Below, in pieces: positions 20,035-35,558 of a DNA stretch of 64,000 nucleotides. Below the pieces are notes generated by a model. The model had not been told where the DNA came from. It ran no database searches and saw only the letters and a program-made list of their open reading frames with translations. A program made the position numbers and the translations under genes. Each line of letters starts with the position of its first letter. Positions within the stretch are counted from its first letter, which is position 1. Source of the stretch: a virus; the IMG/VR virus record IMGVR_UViG_3300047666_001259, positions 1 to 64,000 of that record, one strand, 5' to 3'.

Positions 20035-20608
20035 CTTTCACAAATTTTTTCACAATTTTTACAGCTCTCTCTTTTAATTTCCCGTAGTGAGGAGAATTAT
20101 GAGTTAAGAACTTTGTTTCTTTATGGTAGTTCTCTTGTAAATCTATATCGATAATTCTTAATGTATAGAGAGAAATTCCTCGCTTAATCTCAAAGAGGTG
20201 CTTCTTTTCTAAATAGCCATTAATTATTTCTCCTCTTTGATCTGGATTACTCCATTCGATGCCATTTGTTTTTGATTCAATTCTAACAAGGGCTTCCTGA
20301 ACTTGATGATTCCACCACGAATCTCTTTGAGCTTTACTTAGAGCCTTTCTCTTTTTTGATTTAGAAACATGCTTATCATCATCATCTCCTCTCTTTTTTC
20401 TTTCCTCTTCCTCTTTTTCTACCCTCTCTTCCTCTTCTCTAAGAACTATAGCATCTTCCAAAGCTTCCACGCCCTCCTGTAAAGCCTCAAACTCCTCTTC
20501 ATCTAAGTATTCATCTTCAATATCTAAAACCTCCTCCCGCATAAGAATAAGGTCAGCGACACTTAAGCCGTCAAAATTAAAACTTGATGGTGAGTTTTCT
20601 ATTTTCAT
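20027..20608 (-). CDS. Hypothetical acidic/coiled-coil protein
   Basis: 193 aa, coupled to the SbcDC gene. Confidence 0.7.
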   Translation of the reverse strand: MKIENSPSSFNFDGLSVADLILMREEVLDIEDEYLDEEEFEALQEGVEALEDAIVLREEEERVEKEEEERKKRGDDDDKHVSKSKKRKALSKAQRDSWWNHQVQEALVRIESKTNGIEWSNPDQRGEIINGYLEKKHLFEIKRGISLYTLRIIDIDLQENYHKETKFLTHNSPHYGKLKERAVKIVKKFVKDE

Positions 20609-23600
20609 CGAGTTACTAATTGTGTAATCCCAGCATTAGGATTGGTATTCAAGTCTTCTTCAGTAAGCTCTGTTCTATCTTTAAAAGCTTCGAAAATATA
20701 ATCGGCAGCATCTTTGATCTCATCAACGTGAGTAATAACCATCATGTTCTTATATTTCGTCTTTAAATATCTCAAAATACCTACCATCTCAGTTACGGTC
20801 TCTGGGTGCAGCGTGCCAAACCCTTCATCAATTAAAAATATAGAAGGTTTAACCACATAATTTCCTGAGATGTATCTGAAAGCATCTTTGATAGCTAAAG
20901 AAATTAGAAACTTTTGCGCTCCCGATCCACTTCCAGCAACTGGGAGCCTATCAAATTTGTTTTCCATAAAGTAAAAATATTCTTTAATATCACCTTTCTT
21001 ATCAATCTCAAGATCAACCTTATAGTTTGCCATGTGTCCAATAAGACTGTTTACTCTACTGTTCATCAACGGAAGTCTTTTTTTGATAATCATAGAAGGA
21101 ATACCATCTCTTTCGACAGCCTGAAGGTAAATTGAATATATTTTAAAATTCTTATCAGCTTCCTTAATTTTATTCAATACCACTTTACTTGTTTGAATAG
21201 TGTTTTCAAGCACACTAACGTCACCTATCATTCCATTAATTTGGTTGCTAATTGCATGAACAGCTAACTTGTACTGATCAATTGATTCCTCAATATCTGT
21301 AATGTACTTTTCAGTCTCAATATTCTTTTTCTTGTTTTCTTCGTTTTCATCGAAAACATCAAATTGGTTTTGAAAAACAGCTAAAGAATTCTTAAAGTTC
21401 TGTAAATCACCTTCAGAAGTCCTTAAATCTTTGTATTTACGGTCATACAGAGTGTTGTGTTCAATGATACTCTTTGACTTAGCAATCACATCCTTTTCTT
21501 TATTTAAAGAGTCTAATGCCCCCTCAAACTGCTTAATAGATGATATCAATAACGACAGTCTACTTTCTTTTTGATTCAAAAGATTGTTATGATTTTTATG
21601 ATCCTCCGCCTTTTCAATTAATTTCCTTTTCTCGTTAATGATTACATTCTTCTCTCCGATTAATATCTTTGTTGAACTCTCTGCTTTAGGTTTTGGTTCA
21701 GAAGTGGCATTATTACAAGTTGGACAAGGCTTTCCTTGAAATATAATTAAATCATTCTGAAGAGAAATAACTTCCGATTGAACTTCCATTATAACTTTAG
21801 AAGCACCTGAATCATCTATAACCTCTTTCCTTGGGTTCGATTCAATCCAAATTTTTAATTCTCCTTTCTCTGTTTGAGAAGAGTCTAAGAGTGATTGGTT
21901 TTTATCTATTTCAGACGAAACTGAGTCAATTGTCTTTGTTGAATCAAACGGTAATTCTCTTTTTGGATTGATATCGACCCAACCTTGAAGTTCATTCTTA
22001 ATTTTGGTTACACGATCTACCTTTTCAGTAATATCAGAAATCTTTTTTTCAATCTCTTCCTTATTCTCAAATGGAAGAATTTGAACCTTTTCTAATTTAG
22101 ACGTTAAATTGATGATTTTCTTATTTTCATCTTCACGTCTAGTTTCGTTCATTTTCTTTTCCTTCCCTAAAGAATCAAGTGTAATTCTTTTTGCTTTTAA
22201 TTCTTCTTCTTTAGTGGCAATTTCCTGTTCAATTTCTACCGCCTTACCAAGATCACTGTAGCTTTTCTTAAAAACGTTAATTTTCTTTCTGGCGTAAGCG
22301 ACTCTTTGCTTGAAAGGATCAAGTCCATTGTATTTCCAAAACAAAGAATTCTTATCTTGCTGACTTAGGTTGATGTAATCATCCTCCGAACCATGTATGT
22401 GAAGAGAGTTGATGGAAAAATCTTCATAAGAACCAATAGCTTCTTCAATCTGCTTCTTAACTTCTTTTTGCTCAGAAGTACCGCTGTCTGATTTCACTGG
22501 AACCCATTTTTCCTCGATAACCCCTTCCGTATCAACTTCTTTCCATATTTCAAATTTCCTTCTGTAAGAATTTGATCCTTTTTCTTTTTGTTCTATCCTT
22601 CTTGAGATTCTGTGGAGAACCCCATTAATAAGAAGCTCGATTGAAACAAAACCTTTGTTTGATTCTGTGTATAGGTTTACGATTGTGTTGGAGTCCTTGT
22701 TGCCCGGCACGACTTCGAACATTCCCCAAATAATTGTTCTAATAAGGTTTGATTTACCAGAGTAATTTTTTCCAAAGATTCCCAATATTCCTTGGTATCT
22801 TTGAAGGTCAATCGTCAAAGCTTTCTCAGGAAAAGAAAATAGATTTGAAAATGTAATTTTAAGAGGCTCAATATTCGTCCTATTCCGAGAGTCTTTTGTT
22901 TCGTCAATTTCTAATTCAGAATTATCAATGTCTGAAGCCAACTTAATTATATTCTTTTTCTCCTCATCGCTAATATCACCTTCAGTTTGGTCTAGCCATT
23001 CTTCAAGTAAATCAAGAAACAATAAAGACTCCCCCTCTTCAACTTCCTTTCCGTCTAATACATCGATTTCTTCTTTCTCAATTGCTTCAAATGATATATT
23101 GATTTCTTTACATCCGTATTGATTTCTAATCAGATCACGAATATACCTTTCTCTCTCTAGGGAATAATTCTCTTGATAGTCCTCATAGACTATACTGATT
23201 TTTGTTTTCTTTTTATCGTTTGAGAAATTAAGATTTTCAACTCTTTCTTCAATAGACTCTCCACGAGAGATGTTTAATTTAGCAAAACCCCAGTCGTTTA
23301 AAACATATCTTCTTTGGTGGGTAATGTTTTTCTTATTCGACAAATCCCACATCAAATACCCTTTATCGATTGACTCTCCGTAGTTATTTTGAATTAGTGA
23401 CCCACAGTAAGCAATAGTTTCATCCTCACGGAAGGTTTGATACTCATGGATGTCTCCCATCATAACAGCATCAAAATTCTTGAAAGTTTCCATATTGAAT
23501 CCATCATCTATTCTGATCTCGTACCCATTATCTCCAACAGAACCATAAAGAGTTCCGTGCCAAAAAGCAACGTAAGTTTTTCTAGCTTCAGGTGTTTCTA

Positions 23601-24069
23601 ATTTTAGAACTTCATTATCAACACAAGAATAAATCCCATAAACCAAATCTCTTCCTACATCAAAAAAGCCAGAGCTTGGGTAATAGTAGATTGAGTTCTT
23701 CCAGAAATCAACATCATCTTTATTCTCTTCCGTAACAGTGACTGCCTTCTCTCCAGCATCAAGCATTCTGGCTGTCTCTAAAATAGGAGCCATAATATCA
23801 CCTTGATCAAGGTTTTGTAAATTAAGGTCATGGTTTCCTAAAATTACATCAGTTGGTGCAATCTTGGAAAGTTCAGTTAGGAAACTAACCAAAAGGATGG
23901 ATGATTGTGGAGAGGTTTTGATTTTGTGGTGCATTAAATCACCACCAACGTATATTCTATCAGGTTTTTGATTCCTTAGGTCTTCGTAAAATCTTTCAAA
24001 TACATCTCTAAATTCATCATGTCTTGCACCAAATCGTATTTGGATGTCCGCAGTATGAGCTATCTTCAT
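20605..24069 (-). CDS. Fused Mre11/SbcD nuclease - Rad50/SbcC ATPase (gp47-gp46-like)
   Basis: ADIQ, GGDLMH, GNHD, HG, GDIH phosphoesterase motifs; Walker A GKNYSGKS; CPTC zinc hook in the coiled coil; SGAQK signature; IDEGFG Walker B; ITH. Confidence 0.92.
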   Translation of the reverse strand: MKIAHTADIQIRFGARHDEFRDVFERFYEDLRNQKPDRIYVGGDLMHHKIKTSPQSSILLVSFLTELSKIAPTDVILGNHDLNLQNLDQGDIMAPILETARMLDAGEKAVTVTEENKDDVDFWKNSIYYYPSSGFFDVGRDLVYGIYSCVDNEVLKLETPEARKTYVAFWHGTLYGSVGDNGYEIRIDDGFNMETFKNFDAVMMGDIHEYQTFREDETIAYCGSLIQNNYGESIDKGYLMWDLSNKKNITHQRRYVLNDWGFAKLNISRGESIEERVENLNFSNDKKKTKISIVYEDYQENYSLERERYIRDLIRNQYGCKEINISFEAIEKEEIDVLDGKEVEEGESLLFLDLLEEWLDQTEGDISDEEKKNIIKLASDIDNSELEIDETKDSRNRTNIEPLKITFSNLFSFPEKALTIDLQRYQGILGIFGKNYSGKSNLIRTIIWGMFEVVPGNKDSNTIVNLYTESNKGFVSIELLINGVLHRISRRIEQKEKGSNSYRRKFEIWKEVDTEGVIEEKWVPVKSDSGTSEQKEVKKQIEEAIGSYEDFSINSLHIHGSEDDYINLSQQDKNSLFWKYNGLDPFKQRVAYARKKINVFKKSYSDLGKAVEIEQEIATKEEELKAKRITLDSLGKEKKMNETRREDENKKIINLTSKLEKVQILPFENKEEIEKKISDITEKVDRVTKIKNELQGWVDINPKRELPFDSTKTIDSVSSEIDKNQSLLDSSQTEKGELKIWIESNPRKEVIDDSGASKVIMEVQSEVISLQNDLIIFQGKPCPTCNNATSEPKPKAESSTKILIGEKNVIINEKRKLIEKAEDHKNHNNLLNQKESRLSLLISSIKQFEGALDSLNKEKDVIAKSKSIIEHNTLYDRKYKDLRTSEGDLQNFKNSLAVFQNQFDVFDENEENKKKNIETEKYITDIEESIDQYKLAVHAISNQINGMIGDVSVLENTIQTSKVVLNKIKEADKNFKIYSIYLQAVERDGIPSMIIKKRLPLMNSRVNSLIGHMANYKVDLEIDKKGDIKEYFYFMENKFDRLPVAGSGSGAQKFLISLAIKDAFRYISGNYVVKPSIFLIDEGFGTLHPETVTEMVGILRYLKTKYKNMMVITHVDEIKDAADYIFEAFKDRTELTEEDLNTNPNAGITQLVTR

Positions 24070-29038: not shown

Positions 29039-29154
29039 TTCTTAACTTCTTTGATTTATTCTAAATAGAACTCAAAAAAAATAATACCTTTAATTTAAAA
29101 AGTAAAGGGTTTACTTTATTTTTGAGAATTATTTATACCAAAGAACTATTTCTT

Positions 29155-31650
29155 ATGCCATTTGATTTACCAAATACAGCGAGTACATTATCTCCCCATT
29201 TTTCACCGGGAGAAGACCTAAGATACTTTCCAACCACAGATCGTTCGATATCTACCGTTGGTGATTATCGTGTGCAAACTAATTTTGATCCAGAGTCAAT
29301 AGATCGAGTAATTAGAAATCTCAGTTTCGATCAATACGAATCTTTAAACTCAATGAGCATCACAGGAGCCACTTCTGCTGATACCATTAATGTTTTCGTG
29401 CAATCACAAGAACTTAATCTTGATTTTCAAAGACCTGAAAACAACACCTATTTTTCAAGCTTTAAAACAGAGGTGATAAAAGGAATAGCAGAAATAATTT
29501 CAGACTTTCCATACGCTATCTATGTAACTTCAGGCTCTACTAGCGCCAATACTCTTTATGATTTCTCTAAGGTCTATGACTTAAATACAAATGAAATTCA
29601 ATCTACTTTTAAGGTCTCAGCCGATACTATTGTCAACCAAGGAAACGTTTTACTTAATTCTGGGTATTCTTATAACAACAACAGTTTATTTAATAATTTC
29701 AATGATTACGTTGTTCAGTTTAAAAATGGAGAAGACGCAAACACTGGGTCAACTGTTCCAAGATTAACAATCCTAAACTATTCATTCTCAGCTGGAGTTT
29801 ATTTAGAACTCACAGTTAAAGGAGACTTTTTAACAGGTCAAACGTCAGGAACATCATTCTCTGAATTCTATATTGCTCCCTCTCCTAAGATAGTTTATAA
29901 ATTTAAGAAGGATATTACTCCTCTGCAAAATCAACTTTTCTTTAACGGAAAATACAAAATTGCAAACCCACTTCTAAATGATGGCTCTACGATTGAAGTA
30001 ACTTATACTTGGCCGAAGACCATTGATGGATACAACCCTAATACTTACGGAACGGAGTTCGATGTTTGGAAAGATAGCATGCTAGACTTTGCTGAGGACT
30101 TAGATTGTGACAAGACTGGAATTATGGCTCAGACTATGATCCCTGATTCTTATTTCGAATTTGATAGTGATAGTGATATCTACAAAAATGTTACCCAAGC
30201 TCAAGCTCAGGAGTTTGATATCATCAAACAATATATTGATGGTTTAGTTTATGCTCACACAGCAACATATGACGGAACAGAGTCTGTCCCAGACAAGTTC
30301 ATCTTTAAACTATCCCAGTTACTAGGGTTTGACTTATCTCCTCAATTCAATGAGGTAGACCTATTGCGTTATCTTTCGGGAGATGAAGATGGTTTAGATA
30401 ATTCAGGAGCTTATTATAACTTGCAGCTTTGGAGAAAGATTTTAACTAATATTATTTGGCTTTTAAAGAGAAAAGGAACTAGAGAGTCATTGCTTTGGAT
30501 ATTCCAGCTTATCGGTGCGCCAGAGTGCATGATTAGGTTAGATGAGATTGTATATGATATCTCTTCGGCAGCAGCTTCTGGAAATACAGGTACTTTATTA
30601 GAGAATGAATTATCTTTTAAAGTAAAAACAAACGGATATCCAGATTATAATGTTTCTCCACACATTTTTCAAGAAGGTGGAAGTGGTCGTGGAAATGGTA
30701 TGAAGTATATTGATTTCTGGAGACCACAGTTTGATCCAGTTTTGAGATTTGACAACATCAAAACCCAATCTGGAGATACAGTATATTTCGGAACTGAAAA
30801 TATTATAAACTCTAAACAACTATATGCAGCACTTGATCCAGCTCAAGCAATCGAGTGCAACGTACATGAGTGGTATCAATTAACTGGTACAGTTTGGAAC
30901 TACTGTTATTCAGATATTTCTATGTGTGATTGGGATTATCCTTTCCAATGGATTCCTAGTGATCCATATGCAGCAAAACCAACTGGAGCTACGGAACATA
31001 TTTCTGGAATGACATATCAAGAATATATGACATTCTTGTTTGCTAACAATGTTGACCCACAGACTAGAAAAACGAATGATCAAAATCATACAACTTTCTA
31101 TTATCCAGCTCTGAAGAATATTTACTTGAATTATTCTTACTTAAACAATCCACAATCGAACAGGATTACAATGAGTAAGCTTGAAAACTTTATAAAGTTA
31201 ATTGAAAGGAAGTTCTTCAATTATGGAAAACAACTTTTACCAGCCACATCAATTTTGTTGGCTCAAGGAGTGATTTATAGAAACACAGAATTTCATAGAG
31301 AAAGGTTTATCTATAAAGAAGGAGTTAATAAAGGTTCAGAATTTAGAGTAGACGTGTCTCAGCCAGAATCTCTTATCGAAATCATCGAGGTTACCAATGA
31401 GGTAGTCCAAGAGATTGAAGGAAACGTTATTTCGATTGAAGTCTCTAATGAAATTGTTCAAGAAATTGAAGGAAATGTTATCCCTATTGACGTGAGCAAT
31501 GAAATTACGATTGAAATTGAAGGAACAATTAATGGATATAATTTGATTGTAGAGATTAATGATCTTACTGAAGATTCAGAAGTTGTCTCGGAAGTAACTG
31601 CTACTCAATTATTAGAAGACTTATCTAATATCATCTCTGATCCTGAATAA
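29155..31650 (+). CDS. Baseplate wedge protein (P2 gpI/T4 gp7-like)
   Basis: LSQLLGF...WRKIL.NI.WLLKRKGTRESL.....IG; LLPAT; three acidic C-terminal repeats (EVxNEIVQEIEGNVI); TATTTA at 29130-29135. Confidence 0.7.
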   Translation: MPFDLPNTASTLSPHFSPGEDLRYFPTTDRSISTVGDYRVQTNFDPESIDRVIRNLSFDQYESLNSMSITGATSADTINVFVQSQELNLDFQRPENNTYFSSFKTEVIKGIAEIISDFPYAIYVTSGSTSANTLYDFSKVYDLNTNEIQSTFKVSADTIVNQGNVLLNSGYSYNNNSLFNNFNDYVVQFKNGEDANTGSTVPRLTILNYSFSAGVYLELTVKGDFLTGQTSGTSFSEFYIAPSPKIVYKFKKDITPLQNQLFFNGKYKIANPLLNDGSTIEVTYTWPKTIDGYNPNTYGTEFDVWKDSMLDFAEDLDCDKTGIMAQTMIPDSYFEFDSDSDIYKNVTQAQAQEFDIIKQYIDGLVYAHTATYDGTESVPDKFIFKLSQLLGFDLSPQFNEVDLLRYLSGDEDGLDNSGAYYNLQLWRKILTNIIWLLKRKGTRESLLWIFQLIGAPECMIRLDEIVYDISSAAASGNTGTLLENELSFKVKTNGYPDYNVSPHIFQEGGSGRGNGMKYIDFWRPQFDPVLRFDNIKTQSGDTVYFGTENIINSKQLYAALDPAQAIECNVHEWYQLTGTVWNYCYSDISMCDWDYPFQWIPSDPYAAKPTGATEHISGMTYQEYMTFLFANNVDPQTRKTNDQNHTTFYYPALKNIYLNYSYLNNPQSNRITMSKLENFIKLIERKFFNYGKQLLPATSILLAQGVIYRNTEFHRERFIYKEGVNKGSEFRVDVSQPESLIEIIEVTNEVVQEIEGNVISIEVSNEIVQEIEGNVIPIDVSNEITIEIEGTINGYNLIVEINDLTEDSEVVSEVTATQLLEDLSNIISDPE

Positions 31651-31652
31651 AC

Positions 31653-32177
31653 ATGACAAATAAATATTCAATAAAAAAAACAATATATAATTCCATTAGG
31701 AAAATTATATTTGAATCCGAAAGTAATAGTTATTCTTATAAAGTTTACCACTCGTCTAATGAAAAATTTAATCATTTTAAATTAGAAAAAATTACAAATT
31801 TAGGAGGCGACTTGTATGGTAAAGGTTTTTATTTCACTGATAATTTGAATTATTCAGAAAATTTTGGAAAAATAACTTATGAATGCTTAGTAACTTTAAA
31901 AAACCCTCTTAATCTAACTAATTCAAATTCAAAAAATCAACTAACTCAGTTGGTTAATTACATTAATGATATTCCTGAAAAAGACTTAGAATACATAAGT
32001 GGGTCTATTCAGAACAACAGCTTTACAACTGCTTTCAGAAAAATAAGAGATTTCATTTCATTTGAATCACTTCACGAATTGTACGATGGAGTAATTGGGT
32101 GGTCAGAAGAAGGTGGGAGAGAATACATTGTATATAATCCTAGAAACATTAAGATAATAAATTTTACGATCTTATAA
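31653..32177 (+). CDS. ADP-ribosyltransferase-like protein (ART-PolyVal-like)
   Basis: VYHSS...F..F, YGKGFYFTD, V.LKNPL, YDGVI, EYIVYNP..IK. Confidence 0.7.
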   Translation: MTNKYSIKKTIYNSIRKIIFESESNSYSYKVYHSSNEKFNHFKLEKITNLGGDLYGKGFYFTDNLNYSENFGKITYECLVTLKNPLNLTNSNSKNQLTQLVNYINDIPEKDLEYISGSIQNNSFTTAFRKIRDFISFESLHELYDGVIGWSEEGGREYIVYNPRNIKIINFTIL

Positions 32178-32185
32178 TAATTTTG

Positions 32186-32193
32186 TAACTTTG
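32186..32193 (+). promoter_or_regulatory. Bacteroidota -7 element (TAACTTTG) heading the cassette array
   Basis: TAnnTTTG 4 nt before ATG 32198; TTTA 19 nt upstream as a -33 variant. Confidence 0.65.
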
Positions 32194-32197
32194 CTTC

Positions 32198-32383
32198 ATG
32201 GAGCAAGTAGGGCAAGTACAAATATTTAGTCAAACGGACGACCCCGAAACACTACAACGTGAGATGAATGATTGGTTGGTTGATTGTGATGTGACAGTTG
32301 TTCGTGTCCTACAAACCCAATCTGGTAGAATGGATACCACCTTGACTATCACTTTATTTTACGTGAATAATCCCGAAGATTAA
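32198..32383 (+). CDS. Small hypothetical protein; its stop codon abuts the array
   Basis: 61 aa; QIF...LQREMNDWL...V..V.QT...TLFY pattern. Confidence 0.7.
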   Translation: MEQVGQVQIFSQTDDPETLQREMNDWLVDCDVTVVRVLQTQSGRMDTTLTITLFYVNNPED

Positions 32384-32451
32384 CGGTTTGTGTATGTACC
32401 GTTTGAGGTACGAAAATGGAATATAAACAGTGTTATAAAATTAAATTGATT

Positions 32452-32676
32452 ATGGGAATGTTTGATACAGTAATAGTTCCGTGTCCAGAATGTGGAACAA
32501 AAGAAGAATTTCAGAGCAAAAGTGGTGAATGTTTTTTACAAGAAGTAGAATTAAAAGACTGTCCAAGTGATATATTGTATGACGTGAATAGACACTCGCC
32601 ATACACTTGTTGTGATTGCGGTACTTTATTCGAGGTAGACACAAAATCTAAAGAAAGTACTAAAGTAGTGTTGTAG
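32452..32676 (+). CDS. Cassette gene: small Zn-ribbon protein (MGMFD..CPECG..FQSK)
   Basis: CPEC, C..C; in module B1; alternative ATG at 32416 lies inside hairpin A1. Confidence 0.75.
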   Translation: MGMFDTVIVPCPECGTKEEFQSKSGECFLQEVELKDCPSDILYDVNRHSPYTCCDCGTLFEVDTKSKESTKVVL

Positions 32677-32729
32677 ATAACGATGTACCTTTTTAAAAGC
32701 AAAACGGGCGAGTGTAAAATTTGAAAATT

Positions 32730-32882
32730 ATGGATGATAAAACGATAGCTTATTATTTACAGCACAAAGTAGAAGTAAAAGAGAATAGCTTAAAACCTAT
32801 GGATAAACGTCATAAAATACCTAAGCGCATAAAGAAGGAAATAAAAGAACTAAAAGCAATGATTGAACACTTGACGGAATAA
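32730..32882 (+). CDS. Cassette gene: 50-aa basic protein in the loop of hairpin A2
   Basis: Not in the track; MDDKTIAYYLQHKVEVKENSLKPMDKRHKIPKRIKKEIKELKAMIEHLTE. Confidence 0.65.
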   Translation: MDDKTIAYYLQHKVEVKENSLKPMDKRHKIPKRIKKEIKELKAMIEHLTE

Positions 32883-33038
32883 TTTTTTGTTTTTATACAT
32901 TGTTGTGCTTAACGAAGTGGTGTTTTAATGAAGCACAACGGTTGCAAATATGAGAAGTAAATCTTTTCATTAAAAAATAGACAAAGTAAGATTTATTTCT
33001 TATATTTAGTATCAAAAATTTTATACAAATTAAAAAAT

Positions 33039-33260
33039 ATGGAAAATACATTTGAACCAAGAAAATCCATCTCCGAAAGATATAGTTTGGAGAATATGTC
33101 TAAACAAAGAGGAATGTCTATTGATGACTATAAGTTAGAAATAGACAAACAACTCAAAATGAAACAGGATATTATTGATAAACAACTATCAAAAGGATGG
33201 ACACAGGAACAATCTGAAACTCACGCTATGAGGTGTTTGTATATTGATGGATTTTCTTGA
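33039..33260 (+). CDS. Cassette gene: hypothetical protein
   Basis: 73 aa; flanked by a perfect 15-bp inverted repeat at 33010-33024 / 33285-33299. Confidence 0.7.
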   Translation: MENTFEPRKSISERYSLENMSKQRGMSIDDYKLEIDKQLKMKQDIIDKQLSKGWTQEQSETHAMRCLYIDGFS

Positions 33261-33346
33261 CCGACATTCAAAGATTAAGAACTCATAAAATTTTTGATAT
33301 TGAATATAACGCTGAGTATATGAAACGTAAATTTTAAACAGACAAA

Positions 33347-33586
33347 ATGAATAAAACAGGATATTATATATTAGGAATACTGAGCGGTTTGACCCTATAC
33401 AAACTAATTTATGTTTTATATACATTGTTGTTGTTAGTTGATTTTACGCCTTTATACCCTTACTTAATAGATATAAACTATTATTGCGAAAAGTATACAA
33501 CTAAAAATATTGCTGAAATAGGTGCAATACTTTTGATAGTAATACCAATAGCAATATTTGTGATTAAAGAGCGCAGACTTAAGTAA
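33347..33586 (+). CDS. Cassette gene: membrane protein spanning the A4/B4 junction
   Basis: Starts in the A4 loop, reads through GTT 33427, stops in the B4 terminal repeat. Confidence 0.65.
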   Translation: MNKTGYYILGILSGLTLYKLIYVLYTLLLLVDFTPLYPYLIDINYYCEKYTTKNIAEIGAILLIVIPIAIFVIKERRLK

Positions 33587-33688
33587 AATCTATTAACTAC
33601 AATGACTACTGTATGTGGCGTAGCTTTTCGCTATGACATATAAAGTTTGTTAGCATTAGTACGGATTAATAACTAAAAACTTAATAAG

Positions 33689-33880
33689 ATGACAAAAAGA
33701 GAAAGATTAAAAGAGTGGATTAAAACTCTAAACGAAGAACAAAAAGATACTGTGATACTTGAACTTACAGACTTTGCAATAGATGCCGAGTATGTTGGTT
33801 TTTATGATACTACGAAAGTACCATATTATGATTGTACTGGAGAAAATCTAGATGGAACTGAAAGCGATGATGAAGATTAG
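33689..33880 (+). CDS. Cassette gene: hypothetical protein
   Basis: 63 aa filling module B5. Confidence 0.7.
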   Translation: MTKRERLKEWIKTLNEEQKDTVILELTDFAIDAEYVGFYDTTKVPYYDCTGENLDGTESDDED

Positions 33881-33931
33881 TATTACTGCTAACGTATAGT
33901 AATATGATTAGTGCGGATTAATAACAAGAAA

Positions 33932-34099
33932 ATGGCAAAGACACGAGAACAAAAAAGAATTGAAAATGCGGATAAAGTTTGTAGAGAACTTAGATACCAA
34001 ATAGTAGAATATGGACTAATAGGCGATTGGGATGCAATTAATAAGCATTTTAATTCTTGGATGAATAATGCTAAAAAATCTAAATACGAAAGACCTTAG
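33932..34099 (+). CDS. Cassette gene: hypothetical protein
   Basis: Start MAKTREQ after an A-rich leader; in module A6. Confidence 0.7.
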   Translation: MAKTREQKRIENADKVCRELRYQIVEYGLIGDWDAINKHFNSWMNNAKKSKYERP

Positions 34100-34136
34100 C
34101 ATTAGTACGGATTATTAACAGATAAATTATATAAAA

Positions 34137-34322
34137 ATGGAAGGAATAAAAGTAACATTAGTGCCAAATCAAGAAACAGACTACCAAGCGTTTAGATTTG
34201 ATGAATTAGGTATTACTTATTTTGAATGGTCAAAAATGAGTGAAGATGATAAAAGAATCTTGGTGTTAGAAAACATTATGGAAAATATATGCTCTCACGT
34301 TGACTCGATGGATGAGTATTAA
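34137..34322 (+). CDS. Cassette gene: hypothetical protein
   Basis: 61 aa filling module B6; stop inside the terminal repeat. Confidence 0.7.
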   Translation: MEGIKVTLVPNQETDYQAFRFDELGITYFEWSKMSEDDKRILVLENIMENICSHVDSMDEY

Positions 34323-34383
34323 TGCTAACGGATATGGTTAAGGTTAGTTGCGGGTAGAATATTAATGAATTAAATAAACAAAA

Positions 34384-34584
34384 ATGAAAGCAGATTTAGA
34401 ACAGTTGGAAAAAATGCAAGAAGACTTATTTAGGCAACAATGTGATTTAGATATACAGAAAGCAATGGTAAAACACTTTATAAAAAAGAAAGAAGACGAG
34501 CTATTAACTTTAACCGATGTTGTGGACAGTTTGCCAAGTGATAGACCTAAATTAAGACCATCTTACATTGGCGATAAAGACTAA
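34384..34584 (+). CDS. Cassette gene spanning the A7/B7 junction
   Basis: The right arm of A7 is translated as LLTLTDVV; GTT 34519 is a Val codon. Confidence 0.65.
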   Translation: MKADLEQLEKMQEDLFRQQCDLDIQKAMVKHFIKKKEDELLTLTDVVDSLPSDRPKLRPSYIGDKD

Positions 34585-34663
34585 AAAAAATAAAACAATA
34601 CGGTGTAATTGTCTACAACACCGAAATAAACTCTTGTGCGTAGCATAGAGTTTATTGAATGTT

Positions 34664-34687
34664 AAAGTGCGTTTTTATGCACTTTTT
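34664..34687 (+). terminator. Probable terminator closing the array, convergent with 34686..35558
   Basis: AAAGTGC-gtttttat-GCACTTT-TT. Confidence 0.6.
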
Positions 34688-35558
34688 AGCTATTTAAAAC
34701 AGTGTTAAATGTTTGAGTTAAATCAGGGTTTATGATTCTCTGCTTGTAATCAAGTTCTCCCGAAGTAAATTGAGATTTTCTAGTCAATAGATTGAATTCC
34801 CTAAACAAGAACCCATTTTCATCAAATACTCTGTATTTACCACTTGCATTATCACGAATAGTATTCCCATAGAGAGCGTATGAGAGCGTCTTAACAGTTT
34901 GATCGACCATTTCGATCTGAATCACTGTAGGATCGAAGGAAGTGGCTGTAATGAGTATCTTCTGCCCTGCATTACCTAAGTTCACTTGTTGTGAATTTGA
35001 AATAAGGTTTCTTTCATCAGGAGTTAGAGTTAAAAACAAGTTTGTTCCGTTTGGATCAAGAACATAAGTGCTTGAACTAGCATTGGCGTTGTTGTTGTTT
35101 GTAGAAACAGAAACAACCTCAGATGTAGTAACAATCCTGTGAAAGTTTTTTGTCTTTACTCCATTTTCATCAAAGTATTCGATCATGTAACCGATCAACG
35201 ACCCGGGACTCTGAAACTGAAGTTTTGGAATAATAATTCCTTTCTTAGAAATCTGAACCTCAGTATCTGTATTTGTTGTAATCATCGAACAATCAATAAT
35301 CGTTGTTTCAAACGACTTAGGTTTAATAAGCACAGTGTAGAAACCTAATCTGTTAAAAATTGAAGCAGGAAGCCTCAATTCGTAGACACCATCTGCTCCG
35401 ATCAGTTTCTTAAATTCATTATCTGATATTGCACCAAATAATGGAGCCATCTGAGGGTTCGTTGGAGTCTCTCTAGAGGCTGTATATGAATACAAAACAT
35501 CAACATCATTGCTGTTGACATTTGAAAGTACTTTTGTTCCGTATATTCCTACACTCAT
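34686..35558 (-). CDS. Virion structural protein (baseplate region)
   Basis: GVYELRLP...F..LGFYTVLIKP; TATTTA at 35574-35579. Confidence 0.65.
   Translation of the reverse strand: MSVGIYGTKVLSNVNSNDVDVLYSYTASRETPTNPQMAPLFGAISDNEFKKLIGADGVYELRLPASIFNRLGFYTVLIKPKSFETTIIDCSMITTNTDTEVQISKKGIIIPKLQFQSPGSLIGYMIEYFDENGVKTKNFHRIVTTSEVVSVSTNNNNANASSSTYVLDPNGTNLFLTLTPDERNLISNSQQVNLGNAGQKILITATSFDPTVIQIEMVDQTVKTLSYALYGNTIRDNASGKYRVFDENGFLFREFNLLTRKSQFTSGELDYKQRIINPDLTQTFNTVLNS

What the first reader, a model, noticed from the sequence alone, without database searches (positions are those of the whole stretch)
32380..34665. Integrase-less, integron-like cassette array made of two alternating inverted-repeat module types
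Seen: the 2.3 kb parses end to end into A modules (AAC, 5-6 nt spacer, 11-20 bp arm, loop, complementary arm, 3-4 nt spacer, GTT) alternating with B modules that begin GTT and end AAC. A examples: A1 32382-32434; A3 arms 32946-32965/32988-33007; A4 arms 33316-33333/33406-33423; A5 33601-33651; A7 arms 34336-34351/34500-34515; A8 34617-34663. B ends are self-complementary over 9-20 nt: B2 32902-32910/32931-32939, B4 33427-33446/33584-33603, B5 33649-33662/33880-33893, B6 34096-34108/34316-34329, B7 34519-34531/34607-34619. B1 matches only over GTTAT/ATAAC. Arm sequences differ between modules, so structure is conserved rather than sequence. Eight tiny co-oriented ORFs occupy the modules. Known: integron attC sites are RYYYAAC...GTTRRRY hairpins, and a cassette's 5' TTRRRY complements its own 3' RYYYAAC. 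Differences here: longer B-end repeats, ORFs inside hairpin loops, a phage location, and no integrase in the window. Inference: a phage-borne gene capture and shuffling platform driven in trans by a tyrosine recombinase or HUH enzyme.
Basis: partly seen in the sequence, partly recalled or inferred. Interest (0 to 1): 0.92.

Follow-up and report, generated by a model that had tools for sequence, protein, structure and literature searches.

The report
Integron-like gene cassettes in a phage
This 2.3-kb stretch of a large marine phage is a row of small, individually swappable gene cassettes joined by folded DNA recombination sites. Flavobacteria-type bacteria and their phages share these sites, which work like an integron but go with a simpler Xer-like recombinase, and part of this has been published.

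Summary
On the + strand of 32300-34750, AAC-spacer-stem-loop-stem-spacer-GTT modules are about 12 times commoner than in shuffles.

A covariance model built only from bacterial chromosomal modules finds five sites in the 64-kb window. All five lie in this array and on the + strand: A1, A3, A4, A5 and A7. A8 and A2 are not supported.

The whole array is missing from a close relative, with the ends at AAC boxes. Four of its units (ORF3, 5, 6, 7) occur singly in other phage contigs, and homology stops at the AAC(G) or GTT cores. The sister Polaribacter phages P12002S and P12002L differ by cassette gain, loss and replacement at AACG.

The same hairpin family forms arrays next to a 394-402-aa Xer/IntI-like tyrosine recombinase in a Polaribacter chromosome and a Bacteroidia MAG. 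A phage that shares the ORF3 cassette encodes a 268-aa orthologue beside its own array. The window's contig is only about 31% complete, so "integrase-less" may be a sampling effect.

This is not wholly new. Integrase-less attC clusters (CALINs) in virulent phages, including P12002L, are published with an IntI1 assay (PMC9892861), and rAID-1 arrays are a Bacteroidales analogue. This scan has reported the same system on at least 14 other genomes. The recombination itself is inferred here, not shown.

The parts
32378..32438 (+). It forms the left boundary of the array. Its AAC at 32382-32384 is where homology with the array-less relative L003 ends.
   Evidence: R1 E 1.3e-6; L003 comparison; loop 19 nt identical to a P12002L site. 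Weak thermodynamic fold.
32416..32676 (+). ORF1, a zinc-ribbon-like small protein. The listed ATG lies inside M1, so the ATG at 32452 after the site is the more likely start.
   Evidence: weak Zn-ribbon Pfam hits below cut-off; no relatives in viral contigs.
32703..32904 (+). Long inverted repeat (A2; arms 32712-32731 and 32879-32898) enclosing ORF2 (32730-32882). Membership of the family is uncertain.
   Evidence: R1 hits only the 3' half, 32877-32908, at E 9.
32902..32939 (+). Empty 38-nt unit B2: a perfect 9-nt GTTGTGCTT / AAGCACAAC pair with no gene between.
32933..33014 (+). Hairpin site M3 (A3), with G:T wobbles at stem positions 7 and 12. A block of 71 nt (32937-33007) is 100% identical to a 462-kb uncultured phage whose flanking genes differ.
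   Evidence: R1 E 4.9e-6; + strand -9.5 against - strand -7.3 kcal/mol.
32937..33311 (+). Complete cassette: site M3 plus ORF3 (33039-33260) plus a private 25-nt end repeat (33000-33024 with 33285-33309). The same unit occurs in phage contig L137.
   Evidence: 88.5% identity over 32924-33311; true identity runs from AACGG to TATAACG; repeat.
33304..33433 (+). Hairpin site M4 (A4), the canonical ~125-nt class, with G:T wobbles at positions 7 and 12. The ATG of ORF4 lies in its loop.
   Evidence: R1 E 1.8e-7, full-length match; + strand -9.9 against - strand -6.7 kcal/mol.
33347..33586 (+). ORF4, a predicted two-helix membrane protein. It reads through the loop, 3' arm and GTT box of M4, so whether it is a real gene is uncertain. 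End repeat B4 is 33427-33446 with 33584-33603; its 3' box is AAT rather than AAC.
33597..33655 (+). Hairpin site M5 (A5), short class.
   Evidence: R1 E 1.7e-5; + strand -7.9 against - strand -3.5 kcal/mol.
33649..33893 (+). Unit B5: GTT box, leader, ORF5 (33689-33880), AAC box, with a 14-nt end repeat. The same unit occurs in phage contig L136 between different neighbours.
   Evidence: 87% identity over 33648-33897, running from TGTTAGCA to GCTAACG. The L136 copy has a perfect end repeat where the window has one T/C mismatch.
33890..34104 (+). Truncated long site with ORF6 (33932-34099) in its loop. Relatives have the complete 236-nt site. Here the 3' arm stops after GCATTA and is fused to the next unit.
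   Evidence: 92% to L138/L139 and 89% to L140; R1 hits the complete sites L138 1457-1692 and L140 1456-1692.
34103..34329 (+). ORF7 unit (ORF 34137-34322), ending at the AAC at 34327-34329. It shares its ends with the ORF5 unit.
   Evidence: 86% identity to L008 over exactly 34103-34329. The end repeat shows a compensatory change, TTAGC/GCTAA to TTGGC/GCCAA.
34323..34525 (+). Hairpin site M7 (A7), long class (arms 34336-34351 and 34500-34515), with G:T wobbles at positions 7 and 12. ORF8 (34384-34584) starts in its loop. The 5' half is 83% identical to an intergenic region of Polaribacter phage P12002S.
   Evidence: R1 E 6e-4.
34519..34619 (+). Unit B7, with a 13-nt end repeat (11 Watson-Crick plus 2 G:T).
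34617..34663 (.). Hairpin A8: a perfect 10-bp stem with no strand preference. It is not a member of the site family by R1.
   Evidence: z -4.1 on + and -4.6 on -.
34664..34688 (.). Terminator-like hairpin between the array and the convergent gene 34686-35558 (-).
   Evidence: -6.0 kcal/mol, z -4.2. The simple terminator scan did not call it.
34690..34710 (+). Right boundary of the array: an orphan 3' half-site (AAAAC AGT GTTAAAT). Homology with L003 resumes here. The 11-nt AAACAGTGTTA is also found at 32425-32435.

Best explanation
The region is an array of mobile gene cassettes joined by structured, strand-specific DNA recombination sites. The sites resemble integron attC sites. Each has an ...AAC box, an unpaired spacer, a covarying stem with two fixed G:T wobble pairs, a variable loop, a spacer and a GTT... 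box. They belong to a family shared by Bacteroidota chromosomes (mainly Flavobacteriia and Saprospiraceae) and their phages.

In chromosomes, and in at least one related phage, such arrays lie next to a small Xer/IntI-like tyrosine recombinase. The likely mechanism is that this recombinase binds the hairpin extruded by one DNA strand (the strand on which the G:T pairs form) and exchanges strands at the AAC/GTT cores. The enzyme could come from the host or from an unsampled part of this phage genome. The result is that cassettes, or the hairpins alone, are excised, inserted and swapped between co-infecting phages.

The 'private' inverted repeat at the two ends of a cassette is what remains of the lower stem of its site when the cassette is circular.

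Shown here: family membership, structural covariation, strand asymmetry, presence/absence and single-cassette sharing bounded at the cores, and linkage to a recombinase in relatives.

Inferred: which enzyme acts on this phage, single-strand folding, the exact cleavage position, circular intermediates, and what the tiny genes do. They are probably early accessory or anti-defence functions, as with the methyltransferase cassettes of P12002S/L.
For: 1. Chance is excluded.

2. R1 was built from 46 bacterial modules only. It finds five sites in the window, all in the array and all on the + strand. It finds five more in a second array of the same contig at about 80.5-83.8 kb.

3. Family stem statistics: 94.6% of cells paired; 15 of 16 pairs carry compensatory changes; covariation score 0.608 against 0.164 in shuffles (0 of 500 as high). 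One G:T pair is invariant (46/46) and a second is present in 38/46. Window sites A3, A4 and A7 carry G:T at the same two stem positions (direct reading).

4. The folding strand is antisense to the genes in 7 of 8 bacterial arrays but sense in 4 of 4 phage arrays. So the structure is tied to the site rather than to the mRNA.

5. The relative L003 (842-aa neighbour 89% identical) lacks 32390-34692 and has AAC, 13 nt, GTT in its place.

6. Single units are shared with L137, L136, L138-L140 and L008, with breakpoints at AAC(G)/GTT. The A3 hairpin alone is 100% identical in LR756500.

7. P12002S versus P12002L: four junctions lie at AACG and one lies inside the stem.

8. Recombinase next to arrays:
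- Polaribacter sp. HL-MS24, 402 aa. NF040815 scores 237.5 against a cut-off of 220; TIGR02249 scores 213.9, below its cut-off of 265.
- Bacteroidia MAG, 394 aa, followed by at least 7 sites.
- Phage contig G006, 268 aa, 44% identical to the Polaribacter enzyme, 320 nt from an array of 9 sites.

9. Published: a P12002L site of this kind recombined with attI1 under IntI1 (PMC9892861).
Against: - No recombinase in the 106-kb contig, in complete P12002S, or in the 462-kb LR756500. Many carriers must therefore rely on an enzyme supplied in trans, which is untested.
- Breakpoints are not confined to one position. Units are bounded sometimes at AAC, sometimes at GTT, and once inside a stem (bp2). The ORF6/ORF7 junction looks like an illegitimate fusion. 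Short-homology recombination therefore contributes, and could in principle explain more.
- Several window sites are decayed: A1 folds poorly, ORF6's site is truncated, and one box is AAT. Fold energies are modest (z -1.3 to -3.2).
- In phages the hairpins are on the sense strand, so an RNA-level role cannot be excluded.
- Several ORFs start inside loops and may not be genes.
- Recombinase linkage was checked in only three loci.
Confidence: 0.72

Rival explanations
1. PeSL-like regulatory junctions. The repeats would be primarily transcription or RNA-processing signals of an early operon. Cassette shuffling would then be a by-product of general or short-homology recombination between repeated motifs, with no dedicated site-specific enzyme.
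For: One P12002 junction crosses over inside the stem rather than at the core (bp2). The ORF6/ORF7 junction in the window is a microhomology fusion. Many phage junctions keep only the 5' half-site at a fairly fixed distance upstream of the ATG. PeSL precedent: PMC2839356 and PMC4122927.
Against: Sigma-70-like promoters are not enriched (21 against 20.2 expected) and no terminators were called. The same family occurs antisense to genes in 7 of 8 bacterial arrays and next to tyrosine recombinases. It has invariant G:T pairs on one strand. A related site was a substrate for IntI1 (PMC9892861).
Confidence: 0.12
2. In phages the hairpins act mainly as RNA, for example as RNase III processing or stabilising structures, or as long-range stems closing each cistron in the polycistronic early mRNA. 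DNA recombination would be only the historical origin of the repeats.
For: In all four phage arrays the stable, G:U-containing fold is on the sense strand. Cassette ends show a compensatory change between orthologous units. Start codons often lie in or just after the structures.
Against: No Rfam match. Recent cassette-level exchange between phages at the cores needs a DNA mechanism anyway. Bacterial members are antisense to their genes.
Confidence: 0.08
3. The sites are ordinary integron attC sites (a plain CALIN) serviced by canonical IntI integrases of the hosts.
For: HattCI/Infernal flagged two P12002L sites, and IntI1 recombined one of them, on the bottom strand (PMC9892861). The RYYYAAC ... 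GTT architecture, with an unpaired spacer between two paired boxes, matches attC.
Against: All three array-linked recombinases examined score below the integron-integrase cut-off: 213.9, 191.4 and 151.3 against 265, each split into two stretches. Complete integrons are reported as very rare in Bacteroidetes (PMC9024848). The markers here are fixed G:T pairs rather than extrahelical bases (the latter from general knowledge of attC). Exchange occurs at both cores, and ORFs sit inside loops.
Confidence: 0.06
4. Miniature transposon-like elements: terminal inverted repeats around each small ORF, moved by a transposase.
For: The ORF5 and ORF7 units share nearly identical 14-nt inverted ends.
Against: There is no transposase or Y1-HUH gene and no target-site duplications at unit ends. 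The ends are continuous with the hairpin sites and differ between cassettes.
Confidence: 0.02

Closest known systems
Integrons and CALINs (attC clusters lacking an integrase), including the CALINs reported in virulent phages such as Polaribacter phage P12002L (PMC9892861)
   Same: Arrays of promoter-less single-gene cassettes separated by imperfect palindromes with ...AAC and GTT... boxes, an unpaired spacer and a variable loop. Each cassette's start is complementary to its own end. Only one strand folds well. Cassettes are gained, lost and swapped at the cores. The associated enzyme is a tyrosine recombinase. A P12002L site of this kind was a substrate for IntI1.
   Different: The linked recombinases fall below the integron-integrase model cut-off and are Xer-like (268-402 aa). 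The sites are marked by two fixed G:T pairs. End repeats run to 9-25 nt. Loops can hold whole ORFs. Exchange is seen at both the AAC and GTT boxes, and hairpins move alone. In phages the genes lie on the folding strand, the opposite of the bacterial arrays. No attI or Pc was identified.
rAID-1 arrays of Bacteroidales (Ross et al., bioRxiv 10.1101/471110)
   Same: Same phylum. A conserved XerD-family recombinase is followed by long arrays of small accessory genes, with repetitive intergenic sequences that the authors liken to integrons.
   Different: rAID-1 is described for gut Bacteroidales chromosomes or mobile elements carrying immunity genes. No sequence or structure comparison of its repeats with R1 was made here. 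Phage carriage has not been described for it.
PeSL promoter/stem-loop cassettes of T4-type phages (PMC2839356, PMC4122927)
   Same: Small ORFan genes in hyperplastic regions of large lytic phages are bracketed by a repeated structured motif. Closely related phages differ by insertion, deletion or replacement at the motif.
   Different: PeSLs are an early promoter plus terminator used by homologous recombination. Here no promoter or terminator signal was detected, the motif is shared with bacterial recombinase-linked arrays, and it carries strand-specific G:T marks.

Membership tests
   Five window sites, E 1.8e-7 to 6e-4, all on the + strand and all inside 32378-34525. A8 and A2 do not match.
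   In the family, 46/46 and 38/46. Window sites A3, A4 and A7 have G:T at stem positions 7 and 12; A5 has the same two five apart; A1 keeps one (read).
   None in the 106-kb contig. But the contig is about 31% complete, and a phage sharing the ORF3 cassette has one next to its array. The feature is met in two bacterial loci.
Classical integron | Integron integrase (IntI) reaching the curated model threshold | tested here: not met
   TIGR02249 scores 213.9, 191.4 and 151.3 against a cut-off of 265 for the three array-linked recombinases. There is none in the window.
Classical integron | attI site and Pc promoter at the head of the array | not tested
   No search was made. The window array starts directly after the stop codon of ORF0.
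Classical integron | Single crossover point, so that the attC always travels with one neighbouring gene | tested here: not met
   The A3 hairpin alone is shared with LR756500. Unit B5 alone is shared with L136. A3 plus ORF3 is shared with L137.
CALIN (IntegronFinder definition) | At least two attC sites called by the IntegronFinder/HattCI models with no integrase nearby | not testable with these tools
   The attC models are not available here and Rfam has no hit. Related P12002L sites were called by HattCI/Infernal in PMC9892861.
PeSL regulatory cassettes | Early promoter consensus joined to a terminator stem-loop | tested here: not met
   Promoter-like sites number 21 against 20.2 expected; no terminator was called. 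The scan covers sigma-70-type signals only, not Bacteroidota promoters.
rAID-1 | XerD-family recombinase heading an array with repeated intergenic motifs and immunity genes | tested here: inconclusive
   The layout (recombinase first, then co-oriented cassettes) matches L129 and L135. The repeats and the recombinase were not compared with rAID-1 sequences. The cargo here is unknown.

The most novel reading that the evidence does not exclude
Flavobacteriia-type bacteria and their phages, jumbo phages included, would share a distinct cassette-exchange system parallel to integrons. Its features would be a Xer-like recombinase, hairpin sites marked by invariant G:T pairs, exchange at either core so that both genes and hairpins are modules, and loops able to carry genes. 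Phages would keep their own cassette pool in the opposite gene-to-site orientation, so that the same element also structures their early mRNAs.
Probability: 0.45. Interest if true: 0.75.

Novelty: new variant of a known kind. Interest (0 to 1): 0.6.

Why it matters
If the mechanism holds, large lytic marine phages diversify their early accessory genes by site-specific cassette exchange. These are the likely host-takeover and anti-defence genes. The machinery would be one they share with their hosts.

That would extend integron-type biology to a phylum where integrons are considered nearly absent. It would also help explain how ORFan-rich hyperplastic regions of phages turn over.

It gives a practical handle too. 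A covariance model of the site delimits cassettes, and so candidate anti-defence genes, in metagenomic phage contigs.

The specific locus adds little beyond another example. Its cassettes are tiny, of unknown function and partly decayed.

Tried and rejected
- Rfam at E<=1 and tRNA search over the region: nothing.
- Pfam and PHROGs on the nine small ORFs: only sub-threshold hits, zinc ribbon for ORF1. The ORFs are unrelated to each other.
- Y1-HUH transposase (PF01797) and tyrosine recombinase (PF00589) in the contig: none.
- The repeated 18-mer TTAGTRCGGATTAWTAAC looked at first like a phage promoter. It is confined to three copies in this array and is better read as part of the stem arm or cassette end.
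- ORF1 has no relatives in viral contigs.
- L006/L007 carry an ORF7 homologue in a different intergenic grammar, with homology limited to the gene.
- For two of the L002 cassettes my anchored end-repeat script used coordinates three bases off. Those two zero values are an error of mine, not data.
- No complex or structure prediction was attempted, because none would bear on the claim.
Full report
WHAT IS THERE. The window is the first 64 kb of a 105,908-bp IMG/VR viral contig that CheckV rates about 31% complete. It carries baseplate, helicase, SbcC-like nuclease and MazG-like genes, so it is a fragment of a large, probably jumbo, phage. Between a conserved 842-aa gene followed by a 61-aa ORF (29122-32383, +) and a convergent 290-aa gene (34686-35558, -) lie eight small co-oriented ORFs of 50-86 aa. 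None has a family assignment, and none is related to another.

CHECK OF THE OBSERVATION. A scan for AAC/spacer/stem/loop/stem/spacer/GTT finds 9 modules (7 distinct) on the + strand of 32300-34750. One hundred dinucleotide-preserving shuffles give 0.73 +/- 0.98, and the minus strand gives only 4. Eleven of the 15 arm mismatches are G opposite T. These are wobble pairs on the + strand and A/C mismatches on the other strand. As single-stranded DNA, A3, A4 and A5 fold better on the + strand: -9.5 against -7.3, -9.9 against -6.7 and -7.9 against -3.5 kcal/mol. A1 folds poorly, and A8 is a symmetric hairpin. Cassette ends anchored at GTT/AAC pair further with their own partner than with other cassettes' ends. 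ORF3 is bracketed by a 25-nt repeat at 92%.

THE SAME ELEMENTS ELSEWHERE. DNA searches hit only intergenic pieces. A 71-nt block covering hairpin A3 is 100% identical in a 462-kb uncultured phage (LR756500). The 5' half of A7 is 83% identical to an intergenic region of Polaribacter phage P12002S. Both of those phages have runs of tiny co-oriented genes separated by the same grammar: a cassette-specific stretch, then AACG, a short spacer, a stem starting (T)ATATG, a loop, a stem ending TATA(C/T), a spacer, GTT, and again a cassette-specific stretch. In LR756500 successive genes are bracketed by their own perfect 10-nt repeats, for example GTTATAGATA/TATCTATAAC followed by GTTATAAGTA/TACTTATAAC.

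A pattern scan of bacterial genomes returned more than 120 loci, overwhelmingly Bacteroidota: Saprospiraceae, Flavobacteriaceae, Crocinitomicaceae and others. Several have arrays of modules about 122 nt long.

FAMILY TEST. I aligned 46 bacterial modules and built covariance model R1 from them. In that alignment the 16-bp stem is 94.6% paired. Fifteen of its 16 pairs show compensatory changes. The covariation score is 0.608 against 0.164 in shuffles (0 of 500 as high) and at most 0.135 when the 3' partners are slid by 1-3 columns. One G:T pair is invariant (46/46) and a second occurs in 38/46.

R1 finds exactly five sites in the 64-kb window, all on the + strand and all in the array: A4, A1, A3, A5 and A7, with E-values from 1.8e-7 to 6e-4. 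A3, A4 and A7 carry G:T at the same two stem positions as the bacterial family. R1 also finds a second array at about 80.5-83.8 kb of the same contig, more than a dozen sites in each P12002 phage, and eight or more in the LR756500 locus.

EVIDENCE OF MOBILITY.
(a) A related contig (L003; 842-aa protein 89% identical) is collinear on both sides but lacks 32390-34692. In its place it has AAC, 13 nt, GTT. The window's array begins at the AAC of A1 and ends at an orphan 3' half-site.
(b) Four units of this very array occur singly in other phage contigs among unrelated neighbours.
- Hairpin A3 plus ORF3 (32924-33311, 88.5%) is in L137, with identity running from AACGG to TATAACG.
- The ORF5 unit (33648-33897, 87%) is in L136, running from TGTTAGCA to GCTAACG.
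- The ORF6 unit (33890-34104, 89-92%) is in L138-L140.
- The ORF7 unit (34103-34329, 86%) is in L008, ending exactly at AAC.
In L138-L140, ORF6 sits inside the loop of a complete 236-nt site that R1 recognises. The window copy is truncated and fused to the ORF7 unit. So 'ORFs in loops' is a genuine family trait, and this array is partly decayed. Between the window and L008 the cassette-end repeat changed TTAGC/GCTAA to TTGGC/GCCAA, a compensatory pair.
(c) The sister phages P12002S and P12002L are about 99.6% identical. In the small-gene region they differ by one 1.1-kb and one 0.85-kb insertion and two replacements. Four junctions fall right at AACG(T) and one falls inside the stem.

WHICH ENZYME. 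No tyrosine recombinase or Y1 transposase is found in the contig, in complete P12002S or in LR756500.

In the complete chromosome of Polaribacter sp. HL-MS24, eleven R1 sites with private 10-nt end repeats form an array. It abuts a 402-aa tyrosine recombinase with PF00589 and PF13495 domains. NF040815 ('XerA/integron integrase') scores 237.5 against a cut-off of 220, and the integron-integrase model TIGR02249 scores 213.9, below its cut-off of 265. A Bacteroidia MAG has a 394-aa orthologue immediately followed by at least seven sites. Two further orthologues sit at contig ends.

The phage contig that shares the ORF3 cassette encodes a 268-aa recombinase 44% identical to the Polaribacter enzyme. 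It lies 320 nt from an array of nine sites, and a second array of 13 sites lies 8 kb away. Because the window's contig is a minority of its genome, its own recombinase may simply be unsampled. Otherwise the host's would have to act in trans.

DNA OR RNA. In 7 of 8 bacterial arrays the genes lie on the strand opposite to the one that carries the G:T pairs. In all 4 phage arrays they lie on the same strand. The structure is therefore a property of the site, which fits single-stranded DNA folding as in integrons. However, in phages it will also form in the mRNA, so an added RNA-level role cannot be excluded. It also means that phage cassettes are not simply bacterial cassettes copied across.

RELATION TO WHAT IS KNOWN. 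A 2023 paper screened phage genomes with IntegronFinder and HattCI and reported integrase-less attC clusters (CALINs) in virulent phages, including P12002L. It showed that one P12002L site recombines with attI1 under IntI1, on the bottom strand only. That site's primer sequence begins with the same AACAACGGATAAAAC sequence that forms my P12002 junction bp3, in a 68-nt element repeated elsewhere in P12002L, which differs from the bp3 copy in the bases before the AAC. The other P12002L site failed (PMC9892861). IntegronFinder 2.0 reports complete integrons as very rare in Bacteroidetes (PMC9024848). rAID-1 arrays of Bacteroidales combine a XerD-family recombinase with integron-like intergenic repeats (10.1101/471110). 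PeSL cassettes of T4-type phages are the nearest phage analogue by behaviour. My text searches found no paper describing the Flavobacteriia/phage site family as such; that library is incomplete.

This scan has already reported the same system on at least 14 other genomes. Those notes gave me the leads on the recombinase and on rAID-1. I tested the recombinase linkage, the fixed G:T pair and the orientation difference myself.

VERDICT. The locus is a partly decayed, recombinase-less (in the sampled part) cassette array of an integron-like system of Bacteroidota and their phages. It departs from classical integrons in five ways: the enzyme class, the G:T marking, long private end repeats, genes inside loops, and exchange at both cores. 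The recombination chemistry is inferred. A contribution from short-homology recombination is evident at some junctions.

Noticed in passing
window 31653-32177: A 174-aa ADP-ribosyltransferase gene (ART-PolyVal, E 3.8e-12) just upstream of the array is also absent from the relative L003. It is inserted tightly between the 842-aa gene and ORF0, with no hairpin sites at its ends.
   Followed up: partly
G000 about 80,510-83,823 (L130 16510-19823), outside the window: A second array of five R1 sites on the + strand with small co-oriented ORFs and private end repeats, for example GTTATGTGTA/TACACATAAC.
   Followed up: partly
window 32425-32435 and 34698-34708: The 11-nt direct repeat AAACAGTGTTA lies at both ends of the array. 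Both copies are the 3' arm/spacer/GTT part of a site. The array-less relative has a single related copy.
   Followed up: partly
window 20605-24069 (-): A 1154-aa SbcC-like subunit of a palindrome/hairpin-specific nuclease (phrog_77, E 1.3e-37). Such nucleases are common in large phages, but this one could act on extruded hairpins.
   Followed up: no
L005 (P12002L), reverse-strand coordinates 11425 and 19451: A 68-nt site is present twice in P12002L: once at the replacement junction bp3 and once by the methyltransferase genes. The second copy matches P12002S 100% over the 68 nt. The published P12002L_attC2 primers carry the same element but differ from the bp3 copy in the bases before the AAC. 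I assigned them to the second copy by inference and did not check them against the genome.
   Followed up: partly
L006/L007 1300-1900: Phage contigs with an ORF7 homologue (90% aa) use a different junction grammar: every gene is preceded by AACAAATAAATATTATG and there are no hairpin sites.
   Followed up: no
L129 4736-6943 (-): One cassette of the Polaribacter chromosomal array encodes a 735-aa C-5 cytosine methyltransferase fused to an Arm DNA-binding domain. Methyltransferases are also the main recognisable cargo of the P12002 phage cassettes.
   Followed up: no
L133 and L134 (contig ends): In two draft genomes the array-type recombinase gene sits within about 170 nt of a contig end, as expected if the repeated sites break short-read assemblies. 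Arrays may therefore be under-represented in MAGs.
   Followed up: no
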